Source of the DNA: Escherichia coli
GTDB lineage: Bacteria > Pseudomonadota > Gammaproteobacteria > Enterobacterales > Enterobacteriaceae
Length of the DNA: 64,000 nucleotides
Assembly: GCF_003019035.1 (NCBI RefSeq)
Contig: NZ_CP027447.1
Direction: 5' to 3' (one strand)
The notes below the pieces were generated by a model, which ran no database searches, was not told the DNA's origin, and worked only from the letters and a program-made list of their open reading frames with translations. Below, piece by piece: positions 2,814-9,690 of the stretch (position 1 is the first letter of the stretch; the number at the start of each line of letters is the position of its first letter). Position numbers and translations under genes: made by a program.

Positions 2814-3770
2814 ATGACAAACTTCACGACCAGTACGCCGCATGACGCATTATTTAAATCCTTTCTCACGCACCCTGACACCGCGCGGGATTTTATGGAG
2901 ATCCACTTACCCAAAGATTTACGTGAACTGTGCGATCTCGACAGCTTAAAACTGGAATACGCCAGCTTTGTCGATGAAAAATTGCGGGCGCTACATTCCG
3001 ATATTCTGTGGTCGGTAAAGACCCGCGAAGGAGATGGCTATATTTATGTGGTGATTGAACATCAGAGCCGCGAGGATATCCATATGGCCTTTCGCCTGAT
3101 GCGATATTCCATGGCGGTGATGCAGCGCCATATCGAGCGTGATAAACGCCGGCCGCTACCGCTGGTCATCCCGATGCTGTTTTATCACGGTAGCCGTAGT
3201 CCTTACCCCTGGTCTTTGTGCTGGCTGGATGAATTTGCCGACCCGGCTACCGCACGGAAGCTTTATACCGCAGCGTTCCCGCTGGTGGATGTCACTGTCG
3301 TGCCAGACGACGAGATTGTGCAGCATCGCAGAGTCGCCCTGCTGGAGTTGATCCAAAAGCATATTCGCCAGCGCGATCTAATGGGGCTTATTGATCAACT
3401 GGCAGTATTACTGGTTACAGGGTGCGCTAATGACAGCCAGATAACCGCGCTGTTAAATTACATTTTACTGACTGGCGATGAAGCGCGTTTTAATGAGTTT
3501 ATCAGCGAACTTATCCGTCGAATGCCACAACACAGGGAGCGAATAATGACGATTGCAGAGCGAATTCATAATGATGGATGGCTGTTGGGAAGGGAGAGGG
3601 GGAGGAAAGAAGGGAAAGAAGAAGGGGAAAAGAGCCTCCTCCGATTGTTGTTGCAGAATGGGGCGGATCCTGAATGGATACAACGATATACCGGACTTTC
3701 GGCAGAGCAAATGCAGGCATTAGATCAGCCCTTGCCTGAAAGCAAGCGCGATCCATGGATCGAGTACTAA
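2814..3770 (+). CDS. rpnD: Rpn (YhgA-like, PD-(D/E)XK transposase_31) recombination-promoting nuclease, intact 318 aa
   Basis: ORF track 2814..3770; family hallmarks [23 protein letters not shown] and Lys/Glu/Gly-rich C-terminus; position between mdtM and yjiR matches yjiP/yjiQ locus. Confidence 0.75.
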
Positions 3771-4012: not shown

Positions 4013-5425
4013 TCATTCCATTGCCCGATACACGGCTTCGCCAATTTGCTTCAGTGCTTCGCGATAGGTTTCGCTGAGCGGCAAAGCGCAGTTGATGCGC
4101 AGACAATTACGGTATTTGCCGGAAGCTGAGAAAATCGAGCCTGCCGCCACCTGGATTTTCATGCGGTATAGCTGCCGCGCAACGCAAACCATATCGACCT
4201 GTTCAGGCAATTCGATCCACAGTAAAAATCCGCCTTTCGGGCGCGTAATACAGATTTCGCAGGGAAAATATTCCCGTATCCAGCAGGTATAAAGCGCCAA
4301 ATTGCGCTGATAGATCTGCCGCATCCGCCGGATATGGCGATGATAGTGACCTTCCAGCACAAACGTTGCCGCCGCCATTTGCGTGGACGGCACATTAAAG
4401 CTGCTGATGGCATATTTCATATGCAGCAGTTTATCGTGATAGCGCCCCGGTGCGACCCAACCCACGCGCAGGCCTGGAGCAATACTTTTACTGAACGAGC
4501 TGCACAACAGCACTCGCCCGTCGATATCCCAGGAATGAATGGTCCGCGGGCGCGGATACTCCGTCGCCAGTTCGCCGTAGACATCATCTTCAAAAATCAC
4601 AATATCATGACGCTGAGCGAGAGAGAGAACGGCCCGTTTGCGCGCGTCCGGCATAATAAATCCCAGCGGATTATTACAGTTTGGCACCAGAATGATGCCT
4701 TTAATCGGCCACTGCTCCAGCGCCAGTTCCAGCGCTTCAACGCTGATGCCTGTTTCTGGATCGGTGGGGATTTCAATCACTTTCACGCCCATGCCGCGCA
4801 GCATCTGCATCGAACCGTAATAACAGGGGGATTCGACCGCGACAATATCGCCCGGTTTACACACTGCCATCAACGCCAGCGACATCGAGTTATGGCAGCC
4901 GCTGGTGATGATGATGTCATCGGCGGTGACCACCGAGCCGCTGTCGAGCATCAGGCGGGCAATCTGCTCGCGCAATACCCGCTGGCCGGCTAACAAGTCA
5001 TAACCGAGAACGGTTTGCAGATTATGCTGCACCACCCGGCTTAGCTCCCGCCACAGCGGTTTCAGGCTGGGCGTTTCGACATCCGGCGTGCTTTTACTTA
5101 ACGGAACAATGGAACTGTCGCTATGCGCCTCCAGCATATCCAGCACCTGATCCCACTGGGTAATTTCCACCGGGCGCTGCACCGGACGCGTCATCGGCGG
5201 TACTGGCGGCTGGGCTTTACGTTGTGCGACAAAATAACCCGAACGCGGCTGCGGAGTGATGAGCTTCATCGTCTCCAGCGTCTGGTACGCCTGCTGCACG
5301 GTGCTAATACTGACGCCGTGCTCCTGACTCAAGCTGCGCACCGACGGCAATTTCTCCCCGTGACGATACAGCCCTTGCTCAATCCGCTCTGCAAGCAGAG
5401 TCGCCAGATGTTGATAACGCGTCAT
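4013..5425 (-). CDS. yjiR: MocR-subfamily GntR regulator with aminotransferase-like (PLP) domain
   Basis: 470 aa; N-terminal HTH (LPSVRSLSQEHGVSISTVQQAY) plus large C-terminal fold-type I aminotransferase-like domain. Confidence 0.85.
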   Translation of the reverse strand: MTRYQHLATLLAERIEQGLYRHGEKLPSVRSLSQEHGVSISTVQQAYQTLETMKLITPQPRSGYFVAQRKAQPPVPPMTRPVQRPVEITQWDQVLDMLEAHSDSSIVPLSKSTPDVETPSLKPLWRELSRVVQHNLQTVLGYDLLAGQRVLREQIARLMLDSGSVVTADDIIITSGCHNSMSLALMAVCKPGDIVAVESPCYYGSMQMLRGMGVKVIEIPTDPETGISVEALELALEQWPIKGIILVPNCNNPLGFIMPDARKRAVLSLAQRHDIVIFEDDVYGELATEYPRPRTIHSWDIDGRVLLCSSFSKSIAPGLRVGWVAPGRYHDKLLHMKYAISSFNVPSTQMAAATFVLEGHYHRHIRRMRQIYQRNLALYTCWIREYFPCEICITRPKGGFLLWIELPEQVDMVCVARQLYRMKIQVAAGSIFSASGKYRNCLRINCALPLSETYREALKQIGEAVYRAME

Positions 5426-5601
5426 GCTGTATTCCTTATTTGGACCATACAGAGGGAAAAACCGGTACAGATGAGGCTAAAAAACCGGATGCAGATGCTG
5501 TTTTAACCTGTCTGTATGTTAAATAAAAGTAATGTTTGAATCTGTATTGTGAACTGCCAAAAGGCGGATGATGAAGCCTCTGAAAGATGAGGAGGCAGCA
5601 G

Positions 5602-5766
5602 ATGGAATTTCACGAAAACAAAGCTAAAGCACCGTTTATTGGACTTGTGCAACTCTGGCAGGCAGTGAGGACCTGGTGGCTGAAAAAGCAGACCCGGCGC
5701 GTGTTACAGCAGATGAGTGATGAGCGGTTGAGGGATATTGGGTTACGCAGGGAGGATGTGGAGTGA
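5602..5766 (+). CDS. yjiS: DUF1127 small protein YjiS (54 aa)
   Basis: ATG at 5602 with AGGAGG 6 nt upstream; MEFHENKAKAPFIGLVQLWQAVRTWWLKKQTRRVLQQMSDERLRDIGLRREDVE. Confidence 0.8.
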   Translation: MEFHENKAKAPFIGLVQLWQAVRTWWLKKQTRRVLQQMSDERLRDIGLRREDVE

Positions 5767-5775
5767 TGGGGCAAT

Positions 5776-5800
5776 TTCCCTTCCCGTATGGGGAAGGGGA
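5776..5800. terminator. Hairpin between convergent yjiS and symE (possible bidirectional terminator)
   Basis: cccttccc-gtat-ggggaagggg inverted repeat in the 41-nt gap. Confidence 0.4.
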
Positions 5801-5807
5801 GAGAAAC

Positions 5808-6146
5808 TTAGCGTGGCGTTTTGCTACTAATCACCCCAATAAAATCCTGCACCTGCTTTTGTTTACGCGCCGACAGCTTGCACACCTGGCGCAGCGACAG
5901 CATCAGTTCGCTCTCTTCGGCGGCGGGTGGTTGGGCGGTGAGGACAATACAGCCTTCCATCACTTTGACATCTACCGCCGTGCCGGTGGCAAAACCGGCG
6001 GTTTCCAGCCACTGACCTTTCAGGGTGATGGCGGGAATACGGCTGTAATCCGGGTAGCGACTCGCATAACTCACGGTTAATTGACGGTTATTTGCCGGGG
6101 AGACTTCTGCTTCGAACGGTTGTGCAATAGAATGCGTGTCAGTCAT
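5808..6146 (-). CDS. symE: SymE, SOS-induced type I toxin (AbrB-fold RNA-cleaving protein)
   Basis: 112 aa [48 protein letters not shown]... matches remembered SymE; LexA-like box upstream. Confidence 0.85.
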
Positions 6147-6216
6147 GATTACTATTCCTTAGAAATAGGGATTGTGATTAGCGGTGCGGGTGTGTTGGCG
6201 CACATCCGCACCGCGC
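6138..6216 (+). ncRNA. symR: SymR antisense sRNA (antitoxin of symE), approximate ends
   Basis: By analogy with K-12, where SymR is antisense to the symE start and 5'UTR; candidate -10 TAGAAT at 6128..6133 on + strand and GC hairpin 6181..6214; boundaries not verified. Confidence 0.4.
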
Positions 6217-6223
6217 TAAATAC

Positions 6224-6239
6224 CTGGATATATCATCAG
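6224..6239. promoter_or_regulatory. LexA (SOS) box upstream of symE
   Basis: CTGGATATATCATCAG fits CTGT-N8-ACAG with AT-rich centre, about 80 nt upstream of the symE start codon. Confidence 0.5.
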
Positions 6240-6328
6240 TAAATATGGGGAAAGTCCAGCTAAAAATAGAAAATAATAAAAGCGTTACTGGAAAGATCTG
6301 GAAGAGAAATTAACGTTAATTCAGAATG

Positions 6329-6354
6329 GCCGGATAACAAAGTGTATCCGGCCT
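6329..6354. terminator. Hairpin immediately downstream of hsdR stop
   Basis: ggccggata-caaagtg-tatccggcc inverted repeat 7 nt beyond the hsdR stop codon. Confidence 0.35.
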
Positions 6355-6360
6355 TCATAA

Positions 6361-9300
6361 TTAGTTTAAAACACTCATATGATGTTCTTTAAAATTCTCT
6401 GCCTGTGCCAGCACTCCCATATAAACATCATCATTCGCTACTGGCGGGAACTTATGCTTGTGTAGAAGAAGAATAAGTTCAACTTTTAGTTTCGCTTTAA
6501 TATCATCGCGCTTACTCCAGTCAGGATATTTCGATGTGTTGTCAACCACGCTTTTCATCTCTTTTGCCAGTGACAGCATTTTTTCATCGTCATAGGTGAA
6601 CTGATATTTATCGCGCATATGAGCAAGAATGTCGAAAAACGCTTTTTCTTCAATATCAATACCTAAATCGGCCCATGTGCCCATTTCGGTTTTAATATCA
6701 TAGATAATATCGGTCATTTCCTGACTGAATGTATCGAATTCTTCACCGTTGAGTACATCATCTTCTCGCCGCTCATTATAACGATCTATAATCGCCTGGA
6801 AGCGGCGGGTGAAGTTAATCCCTTGCAACTGGTTCACTTTCTTGAAGTCGCTGATCGCTTTTTCCAGTAATTTTTGTAATAACTGGATCTTTGTTGCCGG
6901 AAGTTTGATCTTGTTAATTCGCGCCAGATAATCTTCGTCAAAAATATCGATGGATTCCGCTTTTTTATCGCCAAGAAAATAAATTTCTTCTACGCCATCA
7001 GCTTTTAGCGCTTCTGCAATCATTTCACGAACGCGTGCATTCATCTGGGTGACATCCGGTGCGTCACCTTTCGTCAGTTTGAAAACAATTGAACGAACAG
7101 CAAGATAATAGTGAATATGATCACGTTCTGTCTGTGATAGTGCTTCACTGCCGCAGCAGACGTCGTAGGCGGCTTTCATGCGTTTAACCAGTCCCATAAA
7201 ACGACGTTCAACTTTCTGGGTACGCAGAACAAATTCCGCCGCGCGGTTGAGGCAGGATAATTGCGCTTGTGGCTCACCACTAAAATAATCCCGACTGTCA
7301 AATTCGTAAAAGACTTGCCCCAACAAATCGAGATGGTTTTTAACTTCTATTACCGATTGCTGAATATCTTCAAAGTTGGTGGCATCAATGCGGGAATACA
7401 TTGCCAGTGCCTGGTTCATCTGACTTTTAATGCCGATGTAGTCCACCACTAACCCTTTACTTTTGCCTTCCAGTTTACGGTTAACGCGAGAAATGGTCTG
7501 GATAAGATTATGTTTTTGTAAGGGTTTATCAATATAGATGGTATCCAGTTCCGGGACGTCGAAACCAGTCAGCCACATATCAACAACAATGGCAATTTTG
7601 AAATTCGATTTAGCGTTTTTGAACTGCTTATCCAGCTCTTTACGATATTCTTTTGTGCCCAGTAAATCATAAAGCGCCTCGTCGTCATCTTTACCGCGCG
7701 TCATGACCATCTTCACCATTTCTGAAGGCGGTAACTCTTTCTGCTCCTGTTCCGTCAGGACGACGCCATCGGGGGCTTGCTTCACTTCAAACCAGGTAGG
7801 GCGAATAGCTTTAAGCTGGCGGTAGAAATCCCAGGCAATTTCACGGCTGGCACAAACAAACATGGCTTTGCCTTTTACGGTGGAACCTTCGGCTACGCGT
7901 TTTTCATAATGTTTAGCAAAATCTTCCGCGAGGGCTTTTAACCGATCTTCATCACCCAGTACCGCATTCATGGTTGCGGTGGCTTTTTTGCTTTCGTCGA
8001 TTTGCCACTCATTGGTGCCTGCGTTTGCGCACTCTTCGTAATACTTTTCGACTTCTTCCAGTTTGCTGGAGTCCAGGATCACTTTAGCCGCACGGCCTTC
8101 GTACACGATGCGTACAGTGATTTCATCCTGAACGGATTCGGTCATGGTGTAACTGTCGATCACCTCACCGAAGACATCGAGCGTCGCGTCAATCGGTGTG
8201 CCGGTAAAGCCAACATAGGTGGCGTTTGGCAGTGAATCGTGCAGGTATTTCGCAAAGCCATAAGTTTTGCGCACTTTTCCGCTTTCTTTATCGACGATGA
8301 CTTTCTGGTCGAGGTTAACCTGGCTGCGATGTGCTTCGTCTGAGATGCAAATGATATTGCTGCGTTCAGAAAGGAGTTCGGTGTCTTCGGTGAATTTATG
8401 GATCGTTGTCAGGAATACACCGCCACTATTGCGTCCCGCCAGTTGATTACGCAAATCTTCACGGCTGATAACAGGAACGATGGTGTCGTCGCCAATGTAA
8501 TTTTTGGCGTTGCACATTTGCGCAGAAAGCTGATCGTCCAGATCGGTGCGGTCGGTGATCAAAACAATGGTCGGGCTGGCAAACTCCACGCTCTTCATCA
8601 AAAGACGCGTTAAAAATTGCATGGTGTAACTTTTGCCACAGCCCGTTGCGCCAAAGTAGGTGCCGCCTTTACCGTTACCGAAAGGTTTACGCGCTTGCTT
8701 GATGCTGTAATAGAGTTTGCGGGCGGCATAGTACTGCGGATATCGGCAGCAAATTTTTACTTCGTGCTTAGCTTTATCCGGGAAGCAGATAAAGTTTTTA
8801 ATCACATCCAGCAGACGTACCGGATGAAACAGCCCCTGAATCATTGAGTGCAATGACGGAATTCCGTCCTGTTCACGGTTTTCATTACCGGTGACTTTGC
8901 GCCATGAGTAAAAATATTCATAGGGCGCAAACAGGTTGCCCATCCGGTTATTAACGCCATCGCTAATAATGCAGAGCGCGTTGTAGATAAACAGTTGCGG
9001 AATATCCCGGCGGTAGCGTTTACAGAGCTGCTTCCAGGCATCACCTATACTGGCTTCCTGCTCGCGCACCGCGCTTTTAAATTCAAAGACGACCAATGGC
9101 AGACCATTGATATAGAGAATGCCGTCAGGAATACGAGTCTGATTATCTTTGCCGGAGATTTTAAGCTGGTTAACAATCTTAATCCGGTTAAGCGGCGGAT
9201 TAATATAGGAGGGCGGGAGTTCTGCCGCCTGTTGCAACGGGACATCTTCGGCGTCAAATATCTGGCGCAGTGCGGCAGGTAGATGCCGGGTGTCGAGCAA

Positions 9301-9624
9301 TTCAATATAGAGATCTTTTTGTTGCCGATCGTCGCGTTTGAACAGAAAACCATTTGCCAGCCAGCGACAAAATGTTTTGTTGCTTTCATAAAGATCGGAG
9401 GCCGGAAGCGTGGTGAACTGTTTGATCAGTCGCTGAATCTCTTCTTCAGTAATGCCATCAGGCTGGTAGCGTGCCGCTAAATAATGACGGAGATCGTCTT
9501 CGATAATGACCTGATCGAGACTTGAACGAGGGACATTATCGCCGATCAGGTGTTGATATCCCTGATCCTGTAATAGTTCAATGATCGCTTGTTCTAATTT
9601 TGCTTCACTGAAAGAGAGACTCAT
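6361..9624 (-). CDS. hsdR: Type I restriction enzyme R subunit (HsdR; SF2 helicase/translocase plus nuclease)
   Basis: 1087 aa from ATG at 9624 (track starts at TTG 9636); helicase motifs YFGATGCGKS (Walker A), ICISDEAHRSQ (DEAH), VGFTGTPI. Confidence 0.9.
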   Translation of the reverse strand: MSLSFSEAKLEQAIIELLQDQGYQHLIGDNVPRSSLDQVIIEDDLRHYLAARYQPDGITEEEIQRLIKQFTTLPASDLYESNKTFCRWLANGFLFKRDDRQQKDLYIELLDTRHLPAALRQIFDAEDVPLQQAAELPPSYINPPLNRIKIVNQLKISGKDNQTRIPDGILYINGLPLVVFEFKSAVREQEASIGDAWKQLCKRYRRDIPQLFIYNALCIISDGVNNRMGNLFAPYEYFYSWRKVTGNENREQDGIPSLHSMIQGLFHPVRLLDVIKNFICFPDKAKHEVKICCRYPQYYAARKLYYSIKQARKPFGNGKGGTYFGATGCGKSYTMQFLTRLLMKSVEFASPTIVLITDRTDLDDQLSAQMCNAKNYIGDDTIVPVISREDLRNQLAGRNSGGVFLTTIHKFTEDTELLSERSNIICISDEAHRSQVNLDQKVIVDKESGKVRKTYGFAKYLHDSLPNATYVGFTGTPIDATLDVFGEVIDSYTMTESVQDEITVRIVYEGRAAKVILDSSKLEEVEKYYEECANAGTNEWQIDESKKATATMNAVLGDEDRLKALAEDFAKHYEKRVAEGSTVKGKAMFVCASREIAWDFYRQLKAIRPTWFEVKQAPDGVVLTEQEQKELPPSEMVKMVMTRGKDDDEALYDLLGTKEYRKELDKQFKNAKSNFKIAIVVDMWLTGFDVPELDTIYIDKPLQKHNLIQTISRVNRKLEGKSKGLVVDYIGIKSQMNQALAMYSRIDATNFEDIQQSVIEVKNHLDLLGQVFYEFDSRDYFSGEPQAQLSCLNRAAEFVLRTQKVERRFMGLVKRMKAAYDVCCGSEALSQTERDHIHYYLAVRSIVFKLTKGDAPDVTQMNARVREMIAEALKADGVEEIYFLGDKKAESIDIFDEDYLARINKIKLPATKIQLLQKLLEKAISDFKKVNQLQGINFTRRFQAIIDRYNERREDDVLNGEEFDTFSQEMTDIIYDIKTEMGTWADLGIDIEEKAFFDILAHMRDKYQFTYDDEKMLSLAKEMKSVVDNTSKYPDWSKRDDIKAKLKVELILLLHKHKFPPVANDDVYMGVLAQAENFKEHHMSVLN

Positions 9625-9690
9625 ATCGCGCTCCAACCCTGGCTAATTTCTGGTAAGCATTCCCGTATCAGTAGAAAACCTTACCAGAAA

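What the first reader, a model, noticed from the sequence alone, without database searches (positions are those of the whole stretch)
5426..5601. Inverted and repeated CTGTAT/ATACAG motifs in the yjiR-yjiS divergent promoter region
CTGTAT-N14-ATACAG (5427..5452) lies right at the yjiR start, with further CTGTAT copies at 5512 and 5542 upstream of yjiS. This is a candidate operator for the MocR-type regulator YjiR (autoregulation and/or control of yjiS). It is not a LexA box; the spacing is wrong.
Basis: seen in the sequence. Interest (0 to 1): 0.25.

Follow-up and report, generated by a model that had tools for sequence, protein, structure and literature searches.

The report
Conserved YjiR operator boxes, yjiR-yjiS
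The repeated CTGTAT/ATACAG motifs are real and are kept letter-for-letter, at fixed spacing, in over 50 enterobacterial species, so they are almost certainly the DNA sites where the regulator YjiR controls its own gene and the small-protein gene yjiS; this link was already predicted by comparative genomics in 2016 and has not been tested at the bench in any paper I found.

Summary
CTGTAT lies at 5427, 5512 and 5542, and ATACAG at 5447.

Clustering inside the window is only modestly unlikely by chance. The decisive evidence is conservation.
- In 54 orthologous Enterobacteriaceae loci, the five best-conserved blocks of the 176-nt yjiR-yjiS spacer are exactly these boxes.
- The five core pentamers sit at 0/+21/+39/+85/+115 in 53 of 55 sequences, all five present in 52 (one shifted by 1 bp, one lacking a box).
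- Spacers and synonymous sites are scrambled by comparison.

YjiR is a MocR-type regulator: a GntR wHTH domain, an aminotransferase fold and a retained PLP lysine. Multi-box arrays with a TGT core, in direct and inverted orientation, are the MocR operator signature.

Using the yjiR start site implied by published ArcA data, box D sits at +1, box E in the promoter spacer, box F beside the inferred yjiS -35, and boxes A-C in the yjiR leader. The likely function is autorepression plus effector-switched control of yjiS.

It is not a LexA box and not an RNA element. Suvorova & Rodionov (2016) already list a "YjiR - Enterobacteriales" regulog (b4340, target DUF1127). This is an ordinary, already predicted operator that has not been tested experimentally in the papers I searched.

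The parts
4013..5425 (-). yjiR, a MocR-subfamily regulator of 470 aa with an N-terminal GntR wHTH and a C-terminal aminotransferase-like domain
   Evidence: Pfam PF00392 (residues 4-66) and PF00155 (130-461). Similar to GabR 4n0b (2e-21) and PdxR 7pq9 (4e-20); the SFSKS lysine motif aligns to the aminotransferase TFSKI. RefSeq names it yjiR.
5427..5434 (+). Box A, CTGTAT(TC). It lies between the yjiR Shine-Dalgarno sequence and start codon, at +62..+67 of the yjiR leader, and is the left arm of the inverted repeat with box B.
   Evidence: CTGTAT is 52/52 invariant. It is CCGTAT in Salmonella and is not kept in the distant orthologue L068.
5445..5453 (-). Box B, CCATACAGA (TCTGTATGG on the - strand), at +41..+49 of the yjiR leader
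   Evidence: 50-52 of 52 at every position. The core pentamer is +21 from box A in 53 of 55 sequences.
5462..5471 (-). Box C, CCGGTACAGA (consensus CCAGTACAGA), at +23..+32.
   Evidence: TACAG is 51-52 of 52, 18 bp from box B in 53 of 55 sequences. The same 18-bp step is seen in L068.
5490..5495 (-). Box D, TGCAGA, a degenerate box over the yjiR transcription start (-2..+4)
   Evidence: C5492 47/52, A5493 48/52, G5494 48/52. It is a perfect TACAGA at the same spacing in L068 and a perfect TACAG in one Enterobacteriaceae sequence. In three sequences of the alignment a CTGTA in the opposite orientation lies 4 bp away instead.
5500..5505 (-). Probable yjiR -10 hexamer TAAAAC (read on the - strand), with the yjiR start near 5493
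   Evidence: T5501 and T5504 are 52/52; A5505 is 49/52. The start was back-calculated from Park et al. 2013, who place the ArcA box at -43..-23 of the mapped yjiR start. That puts this hexamer at -12..-7. The promoter assignment itself is inference.
5511..5518 (+). Box E, TCTGTATG, in the spacer of the yjiR promoter (-18..-25)
   Evidence: 51-52 of 52 at all eight positions. TCTGTAT-N23-TCTGTAT is exact in 62 of 74 fetched loci at the same offset.
5516..5536 (+). ArcA box ATGTTAAATAAAAGTAATGTT, a second published regulator site between boxes E and F
   Evidence: It matches 20 of 21 bases of the K-12 ArcA~P box ATGTTAAATAAAAGTAATATT. Park et al. report a ChIP-seq peak 'yjiS/yjiR', and yjiR is 2.9-fold up in an arcA mutant (PMC3798270 supplements). 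The block 5519-5530 is conserved.
5541..5548 (+). Box F, TCTGTATT, a direct repeat of box E 30 bp downstream that abuts the inferred yjiS -35
   Evidence: 50-52 of 52. The 30-31 bp direct-repeat step recurs in L068 and in the related MocR loci L071, L072 and L074.
5547..5575 (+). Inferred yjiS core promoter: -35 TTGTGA (5547-5552), a 17-bp variable spacer, and -10 GATGAA (5570-5575; GATAAA in most species)
   Evidence: T5547 50/52, T5548 52/52, G5549 49/52, A5571 52/52, T5572 52/52, with 5550-5566 variable. No start site was available and the consensus scan found nothing at 9 of 12 or better. This is inference only.
5602..5766 (+). yjiS, a 54-aa DUF1127 small protein and the predicted regulated target
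   Evidence: Pfam PF06568, 3.6e-12. It is divergent from yjiR in every locus examined. AGGAGG lies at 5590-5595.

Best explanation
The CTGTAT/ATACAG hexamers are the cores of a six-box operator array, about 5427-5548, for the PLP-dependent MocR-family regulator YjiR. The box consensus is (T)CTGTAT(G), and each box would be read by one GntR-type winged-helix domain. The orientations along the + strand are A-> B<- C<- D<- E-> F->, with centre-to-centre steps of 21, 18, 24, 22 and 30 bp.

The older core is C, D | E, F: two direct-repeat pairs facing away from each other. Boxes A and B are an added inverted pair in Enterobacteriaceae.

Proposed mechanism (inferred, not shown):
- YjiR dimers on D/E sit over the -10/+1 and spacer of the yjiR promoter and repress yjiR. 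Boxes A-C in the 68-nt leader stabilise the complex or act as a roadblock.
- The dimer on the E/F direct repeat abuts the weak yjiS promoter and controls it.
- An unknown amino-type effector reacting with bound PLP changes which box pairs are occupied, as described for PdxR and, from my own knowledge, GabR.
- ArcA binds between E and F as a second input.

I lean towards activation of yjiS (roughly 55:45 over repression).
For: Shown here:
- The hexamers are at the stated positions.
- They coincide with five of the six most conserved blocks of the spacer in 52 sequences.
- Core-pentamer spacing is identical to the base pair in 53 of 55 sequences, all five present in 52. The spacer length is 176 +/- 3 nt in all loci.
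- The neutral baseline is diverged: mean top-base frequency at fourfold sites is 0.65, and only 4.5% of sites are at least 95% conserved.
- The YjiS protein is only 46-78% identical outside Escherichia, so the boxes are better kept than the target gene.
- TCTGTAT-N23-TCTGTAT is exact in 62 of 74 loci. These include Salmonella and a C. koseri YjiR that is only 45% identical.
- A 50%-identical YjiR with a divergent DUF1127 gene (L068) keeps steps of 18/24/22/31.
- A 43%-identical MocR with a different recognition helix (VSPGTVLNCY versus VSISTVQQAY) has changed boxes (ACTGTTA) in the same <- <- -> -> layout.
- YjiR has the MocR domains and the PLP lysine motif.

From papers:
- MocR motifs have 2-4 boxes, direct and/or inverted, with a TGT/TGG core and constant spacing within an orthologous group. 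A '<- <- -> ->' class exists (PMC5320631).
- The same paper lists the regulog 'YjiR - Enterobacteriales', including b4340, with target COG5457, the paper's label for the YjiS-related (DUF1127) protein family.
- PdxR binds 48 bp carrying two direct and one inverted repeat, wraps the DNA, and PLP switches the motif pair used (PMC10450172).
- The yjiR start site was back-calculated from the ArcA table (PMC3798270).
Against: - No binding data for YjiR exist in the papers I could search.
- I could not see the RegPrecise motif itself, so its identity with these boxes is inferred.
- The steps of 18 and 24 bp are not whole helical turns.
- Box D is degenerate and is replaced by an opposite-orientation CTGTA in three sequences of the alignment.
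- The yjiS promoter and start site are inferred. Its -10 lacks the usual final T, and the tool's consensus scan found no promoter.
- The meaning of the '**' beside the yjiR start-site entry was not seen.
- The within-window clustering statistic alone is weak.
Confidence: 0.8

Rival explanations
1. The boxes are bound by some other DNA-binding protein, such as LexA (whose half-site is also CTGTAT), ArcA or IHF, and YjiR is a bystander.
For: CTGTAT equals a LexA half-site (own knowledge), and A/B is CTGT-N18-ACAG, one helical turn wider than a LexA box. ArcA does bind this spacer in vivo, and yjiR is derepressed in an arcA mutant. AATCTGTATGTTA is one mismatch from the loose IHF consensus (own reading).
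Against: - No CTGT-N8-ACAG with one mismatch or fewer lies in the spacer.
- The published ArcA box is the TGTTA-type block at 5516-5536 between E and F, not the CTGTA boxes.
- None of these proteins explains five or six copies in mixed orientation at fixed 18-30 bp steps.
- The boxes travel with yjiR in every locus and change when the MocR recognition helix changes.
Confidence: 0.05
2. The A/B inverted repeat acts as RNA. In the yjiR leader, CUGUAU...AUACAG would form a hairpin around the Shine-Dalgarno sequence and control translation or stability of the yjiR mRNA. This could be in addition to any DNA role.
For: With the yjiR start near 5493, boxes A, B and C are transcribed. Box A sits between the SD and the AUG. 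The minimum-free-energy fold of the leader does pair the two arms. The Salmonella change CTGTAT to CCGTAT still allows a G-U pair.
Against: - The leader folds no better than shuffles (z = -0.06).
- It would be a 6-bp stem with a 14-nt loop.
- Both arms are invariant, so there is no covariation.
- Boxes C, E and F have no RNA partner yet are equally invariant.
- E and F lie upstream of the yjiR start.
- There is no Rfam match in the spacer above noise.
Confidence: 0.07
3. The hexamers are a chance cluster, or simply core promoter and AT-rich spacer sequence with no dedicated regulator.
For: 7 of 200 whole-window shuffles reach 5 pentamers in 121 bp. CTGTAT overall is not enriched in the window (25 found against 18.8 expected). 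The copy inside yjiR at 5366 is just codons.
Against: The boxes are invariant, and their spacing fixed, across more than 50 species whose neutral sites are scrambled. The boxes do not match -10 or -35 hexamers. Three of them lie in a transcribed leader.
Confidence: 0.02

Closest known systems
Published in-silico regulog 'YjiR - Enterobacteriales' (Suvorova & Rodionov 2016, Microb Genom, PMC5320631; deposited in RegPrecise)
   Same: It covers the same regulator (E. coli b4340), the same predicted target (COG5457, the YjiS-related DUF1127 family) and the same kind of evidence (conserved repeated boxes upstream). Further YjiR regulogs are listed for Pseudomonadaceae and Oceanospirillales.
   Different: The held text gives no motif sequence, so I could not confirm that their motif is the CTGTA array. 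The table lists only COG5457 for YjiR, without the 'TF' tag carried by other rows (which I take to mark the regulator's own gene). My anatomy (six boxes, bp-rigid spacing, positions relative to the yjiR start and the ArcA box) is derived here.
Bacillus clausii PdxR operator in the pdxR-pdxST divergent region
   Same: A MocR dimer, a divergent regulator/target pair, a mix of direct and inverted repeats, A/T-rich tracts between boxes, DNA wrapping, and an effector (PLP) that changes which repeat pair is bound (PMC10450172).
   Different: PdxR uses three motifs within 48 bp. Here there are five or six boxes over about 121 bp, implying more than one dimer. The box sequence differs, and the effector and target function (a small DUF1127 protein rather than a PLP synthase) differ.
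Bacillus subtilis GabR operator in the gabR-gabT region
   Same: The MocR paradigm of autorepression plus effector-dependent activation of the divergent gene from one shared site made of direct repeats (PMC5320631 introduction and own knowledge). YjiR is similar to GabR 4n0b at 2e-21.
   Different: GabR uses two ATACCA direct repeats about four turns apart. Here the box is CTGTAT, the E/F step is 30 bp, and additional inverted boxes extend into the regulator's own leader.
E. coli YdcR, the other MocR regulator of E. coli K-12
   Same: Same family in the same organism. PLP binding and an EMSA shift on its own promoter region were shown (PMC9321722).
   Different: It has a different target. In that EMSA, YjiR was used only as a negative control on YdcR DNA, so YjiR's own DNA binding remains untested.

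Membership tests
MocR subfamily of GntR regulators (for YjiR, the presumed binder) | N-terminal GntR-type winged helix-turn-helix domain | tested here: met
   PF00392, residues 4-66, E = 5.9e-16
MocR subfamily of GntR regulators (for YjiR, the presumed binder) | C-terminal fold-type I aminotransferase-like domain | tested here: met
   PF00155, residues 130-461, E = 1.1e-38. Best PDB matches are aminotransferases 1x0m and 3aov at 4e-45; GabR scores 2e-21 and PdxR 4e-20 over both domains.
MocR subfamily of GntR regulators (for YjiR, the presumed binder) | Retained PLP-binding lysine (S-x-S-K motif) | tested here: met
   YjiR 'SSFSKSIAPGLRVGW' aligns to 'GTFSKILAPGFRIGW' of aminotransferase 1x0m. 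That this is the catalytic lysine is from family knowledge. Actual PLP binding was not tested.
MocR-type operator | Lies in the regulator's own upstream region, usually shared with a divergent target gene | tested here: met
   All boxes lie in the 176-nt yjiR-yjiS spacer. The divergent pair is present in all orthologous loci that carry an intact yjiR.
MocR-type operator | Two to four (rarely more) repeated boxes in direct and/or inverted orientation with a conserved TGT or TGG core | tested here: met
   Five invariant boxes and one degenerate box, core CTGTA, orientations -> <- <- <- -> ->. The criterion is taken from PMC5320631.
MocR-type operator | Box spacing constant within an orthologous group and equal to one or several helical turns | tested here: inconclusive
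   Constancy is met strongly: core-pentamer offsets are identical in 53 of 55 sequences, and the distant orthologue L068 has 18/24/22/31. Whole-turn spacing is only partly met: 21, 22 and 30 bp fit, 18 and 24 do not.
MocR-type operator | Boxes co-vary with the regulator's recognition helix across related regulators | tested here: met
   Same helix, same boxes in L068. Changed helix (VSPGTVLNCY), changed box (ACTGTTA) in L071. The sample is small, so this is qualitative.
MocR-type operator | Direct, sequence-specific binding by the regulator, with a response to PLP or an effector | not testable with these tools
   No EMSA, footprint or ChIP data for YjiR were found in the searched literature.
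LexA (SOS) box | Palindrome CTGT-N8-ACAG | tested here: not met
   No match with one mismatch or fewer between 5426 and 5601. The A/B pair is CTGT-N18-ACAG.
Cis-regulatory RNA element (Rfam families or a structured leader) | Match to a curated RNA family, or a fold more stable than shuffles with covarying pairs | tested here: not met
   Rfam finds only SymR at 6141-6217; the spacer hits are sub-threshold archaeal C/D-box noise. The yjiR leader has z = -0.06. The arms are invariant, so no covariation is possible.

The most novel reading that the evidence does not exclude
The array could be more than a simple operator: a bp-rigid nucleoprotein switch of about 120 bp holding two or three YjiR dimers. 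In this reading an unknown host-associated amine or amino-acid effector re-pairs winged-helix domains between direct (E/F, C/D) and inverted (A/B, D/E) box pairs. YjiR would then be the missing regulator behind the extreme intracellular induction of yjiS in Salmonella. The YjiS characterisation paper attributes that induction tentatively to SsrB and never mentions YjiR. Box A, lying between the SD and the AUG, might add a translational layer.
Probability: 0.25. Interest if true: 0.55.

Novelty: already known. Interest (0 to 1): 0.3.

Why it matters
YjiR is one of only two MocR regulators in E. coli K-12 and was still listed as uncharacterised in the 2016 and 2022 transcription-factor surveys I read. 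[quoted passage not shown] That paper discusses only a possible SsrB site and does not mention the divergent regulator.

The box map gives exact bases to mutate. It also gives a clear prediction to test: deleting yjiR or mutating the boxes should change yjiS induction. The strict spacing suggests a multi-dimer MocR complex larger than the PdxR and GabR examples studied structurally.

As a class of feature, though, it is an ordinary autoregulatory operator in a divergent promoter. The regulator-target link was already published as a computational prediction.

Tried and rejected
- **Consensus promoter/terminator scan of 5300-5850:** nothing found. Promoters had to be inferred from conservation and from literature start-site data.
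- **Rfam scan of 5200-6400:** only SymR. The spacer hits are chance C/D-box matches (GAUGAUGA...CUGA).
- **RNA folding:**
  - The yjiR leader shows no excess stability.
  - The yjiS leader in this strain folds at z = -2.75, with GCCUCU pairing to the SD.
  - RNAalifold finds no consensus structure in 28 species, and pair counts barely beat shuffles (78.8% against 76.9%). I did not adopt this structure.
- **LexA box:** rejected on spacing.
- **The ATACAG inside yjiR at 5366:** rejected as a box, because it varies synonymously.
- **Idea that S. Typhimurium-type yjiS loci lack yjiR, giving a natural knockout test:** rejected. In every contig context returned for this Salmonella YjiS sequence, yjiS sits next to a 470-aa MocR gene and keeps boxes B, C, E and F.
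- **Looking for the RegPrecise motif:** the 2016 paper's supplement holds only regulon tables.
- **Looking for genome-wide yjiS/yjiR start sites:** the Thomason 2015 id I tried was not held, and the Kim 2012 supplements contained no matching entries.
- **Relatives at about 40% identity (L069-L074):** most are EamA-linked MocRs rather than YjiR orthologues. They were useful only for showing the shared 30-31 bp direct-repeat step.

Full report
**1. Observation**

Reading 5200-5900 shows yjiR ending its reverse-strand reading frame with its start codon at 5425-5423. yjiS starts at 5602, behind an AGGAGG at 5590-5595. Pfam confirms the genes. The 470-aa product of 4013-5425(-) has a GntR wHTH domain and an aminotransferase class I/II domain, and the 54-aa product of 5602-5766(+) is DUF1127. 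RefSeq annotation of matching E. coli genomes names them yjiR and yjiS.

CTGTAT is at 5427, 5512 and 5542, and ATACAG at 5447. CTGTAT-N14-ATACAG is unique in the window, with none in 100 shuffles.

- GTACAG at 5465-5470;
- a weaker TGCAGA at 5490-5495;
- an ATACAG inside yjiR at 5366.

**2. Is it more than chance?**

Inside the window alone the case is only moderate. Five CTGTA/TACAG pentamers in 121 bp is the window maximum, yet 7 of 200 shuffled windows reach the same count. Shuffling only the spacer gives 5 or more in 1 of 20,000.

- A scan of one genome per species returned 59 loci. In 54 of them a YjiR orthologue (69-100% identical) sits divergently from a DUF1127 gene, with a spacer of 176 +/- 3 nt.
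- In the alignment, the runs of columns at least 95% identical among 52 sequences are 5427-34, 5445-53, 5466-70, 5511-18, 5525-28 and 5541-48. These are the five boxes plus an A-tract.
- The core pentamers lie at 0/+21/+39/+85/+115 in 53 of 55 sequences, and all five are present in 52. One further sequence has the whole set shifted by 1 bp and one lacks box B.
- By contrast, fourfold-degenerate sites in yjiR have a mean top-base frequency of 0.65, and only 4.5% reach 95%.
- The YjiS protein itself is only 46-78% identical outside Escherichia.
- The hexamer inside the coding sequence encodes Leu-Tyr and varies synonymously in 7 of 30 orthologues, so it is not a box.
- The exact string TCTGTAT-N23-TCTGTAT occurs once, at the same offset from the yjiR ATG, in 62 of 74 loci. 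These include Salmonella and a C. koseri YjiR that is only 45% identical.

**3. Anatomy**

The box consensus is (T)CTGTAT(G). Along the + strand the boxes are:

| Box | Coordinates | Orientation |
|---|---|---|
| A | 5427 | -> |
| B | 5445-53 | <- |
| C | 5462-71 | <- |
| D | 5490-95 | <- (degenerate) |
| E | 5511-18 | -> |
| F | 5541-48 | -> |

The centre-to-centre steps are 21, 18, 24, 22 and 30 bp. A-rich tracts precede boxes C and D and lie between E and F.

Relatives show which part is older.
- A 50%-identical YjiR with a divergent DUF1127 gene (L068) keeps B-C-D-E-F at 18/24/22/31 and has a perfect TACAGA at D. It lacks an equivalent of A.
- A 43%-identical, EamA-linked MocR (L071) has the layout <- <- -> -> -> with steps 24/21/30/28, but with ACTGTTA boxes.
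- Two other EamA-linked relatives (L072, L074) have just two direct CTGTA boxes 31 bp apart.

So the E/F direct repeat, about three helical turns, is the oldest unit. C, D | E, F matches the '<- <- -> ->' class reported for MocR motifs. A and B are an enterobacterial addition.

The recognition helix tracks the box. It is VSISTVQQAY here and VSISTAQEAY in L068, which has the same box. It is VSPGTVLNCY in L071, which has a changed box.

**4. Placement relative to promoters**

The consensus scan found no promoter. Published data help.

Park et al. 2013 report an ArcA ChIP-seq peak 'yjiS/yjiR' and an ArcA~P box ATGTTAAATAAAAGTAATATT. That box matches window 5516-5536 at 20 of 21 bases. They also report 2.9-fold derepression of yjiR in an arcA mutant and reduced anaerobic sigma-70 occupancy. 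The box is listed at -43 to -23 of the mapped yjiR start site.

Back-calculating puts the yjiR start near 5493 on the minus strand. The conserved TAAAAC (5505 to 5500) is then at -12..-7. This agrees with the hexamer I had picked from conservation alone. I did not see the footnote for the '**' beside that entry.

On this frame:

| Feature | Position relative to the yjiR start |
|---|---|
| Box D | -2..+4 |
| Box E | -18..-25 |
| Box F | -48..-55 |
| Box C | +23..+32 |
| Box B | +41..+49 |
| Box A | +62..+67 |
| AUG | +69 |

For yjiS I infer a -35 of TTGTGA (5547-52; the three TTG positions are 50/52, 52/52 and 49/52). A variable 17-bp spacer follows, then a -10 of GATGAA (GATAAA in most species), with A5571 and T5572 at 52/52. 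The start would be near 5582, and box F abuts the -35.

This is consistent with the remark that a putative SsrB motif lies about 50 bp upstream of the Salmonella yjiS start. It is still inference. Shimada et al. 2014 found RNA polymerase holoenzyme binding in this spacer and suggested other hexamers by sequence inspection.

**5. Mechanism**

YjiR has the MocR hallmarks, including an SFSKS motif aligned to the aminotransferase PLP-lysine motif and similarity to GabR and PdxR structures.

In PdxR, a dimer wraps about 48 bp carrying direct and inverted repeats. A/T tracts guide bending, and PLP changes which repeats are bound.

By analogy I propose the following. All of these steps are inferred.
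- YjiR dimers on D/E occlude the yjiR promoter, giving autorepression.
- Boxes A-C in the leader stabilise a higher-order complex or block elongation.
- The dimer on E/F controls the weak yjiS promoter. An unknown effector switches the pairing of boxes.

What is shown is the conservation, the spacing, the family membership and the co-variation of box with recognition helix. The sign of regulation is open. I lean to activation because the yjiS -10 is poor and because most characterised MocRs activate the divergent gene (own knowledge).

**6. Rivals**

- **LexA.** The half-site is the same, but no N8 palindrome exists in the spacer.
- **ArcA.** It binds the separate TGTTA-type block, not the boxes.
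- **RNA hairpin from A/B.** The leader folds no better than shuffles. Boxes C, E and F have no partner, and Rfam finds nothing.
- **Chance.** This is excluded by the conservation data.

**7. What is known**

Suvorova & Rodionov 2016 list the regulog 'YjiR - Enterobacteriales'. It covers E. coli b4340, C. koseri, Enterobacter, Pectobacterium, Klebsiella and Serratia, with target COG5457, the paper's label for the YjiS-related (DUF1127) protein. Sister regulogs are listed for Pseudomonadaceae and Oceanospirillales. The regulator-target link and a conserved motif here are therefore already published as a prediction. The motif sequence itself was not in the held text.

I found no experimental work on YjiR binding. 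One study used YjiR only as a negative control in a YdcR EMSA. The 2025 characterisation of Salmonella YjiS calls yjiS usually the most highly induced gene after invasion. It does not mention YjiR or MocR.

**8. Verdict**

This is a real and very strongly constrained operator array of a well-known kind, already predicted in silico and experimentally untested in the papers I searched. Interest is low to moderate. Its value lies in the exact box map and in the testable link to yjiS induction.

Noticed in passing
window 5516-5536: A published ArcA~P box lies between boxes E and F (K-12 sequence ATGTTAAATAAAAGTAATATT; 20 of 21 bases match here). Park et al. report a ChIP-seq peak and 2.9-fold derepression of yjiR in an arcA mutant. 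yjiR is therefore under redox control as well.
   Followed up: partly
window 5576-5596: In this strain, GCCUCU can pair with the yjiS Shine-Dalgarno AGGAGGC; the 80-nt fold has z = -2.75. Across 28 species RNAalifold finds no structure, and pairing barely beats shuffles (78.8% against 76.9%). If the yjiS start is near 5582, the 5' arm would not even be transcribed.
   Followed up: yes
window 5808-6146 (-) and 6141-6217 (+): This is the SymE toxin gene (PF08845) with its antisense SymR RNA (Rfam RF01809, 93 bits). A LexA-like CTGGATATATCATCAG lies at 6224-6239, upstream of symE.
   Followed up: partly
window 5766-6361: yjiS is followed directly by symE and then a 1091-aa ORF on the minus strand (6361-9636, not scanned against Pfam; I guess an hsdR-type restriction subunit from its sequence). 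A 2010 tiling-array paper lists yjiS and mcrC as neighbouring genes in K-12, and from memory K-12 also carries yjiT/yjiV there, so this strain appears to have a different immigration-control region.
   Followed up: no
window 5602-5766 and 4013-5425: YjiS here is 98% identical to proteins of unnamed Escherichia sp. isolates but only about 81-87% identical to most of the E. coli entries. YjiR is 100% identical to that of Escherichia sp. E1V33. The window may therefore come from a divergent Escherichia lineage rather than typical E. coli.
   Followed up: no
E. coli genome search with window 5380-5640: Only 3738 of 5426 complete E. coli genomes carry this yjiR-yjiS spacer. One (TW10573) keeps only the yjiS-proximal half, from about 5500 onward, so the locus is dispensable and sometimes partly deleted.
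   Followed up: no
window 2814-3770 (+): A 318-aa YhgA-like putative transposase (PF04754, E = 1e-85) lies next to the yjiR 3' end.
   Followed up: no
L017, L021, L022, L026 (aligned position of window 5488-5499): In these four loci (record titles: Klebsiella pneumoniae, oxytoca, grimontii and michiganensis) the degenerate box D is missing. Three of them instead have CTGTAC in the opposite orientation 4 bp away (TCTGCTGTACG), and L017 has TCTGGTGTACG. This is a lineage-specific rearrangement of one box within an otherwise fixed array.
   Followed up: no
L062-L067 (Salmonella loci): In Salmonella the yjiR-yjiS pair is flanked by toxin-antitoxin genes (CcdA/CcdB, or a TacA-like gene plus an acetyltransferase) and a DotM_C-domain gene. 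This suggests a variable, island-like neighbourhood.
   Followed up: no
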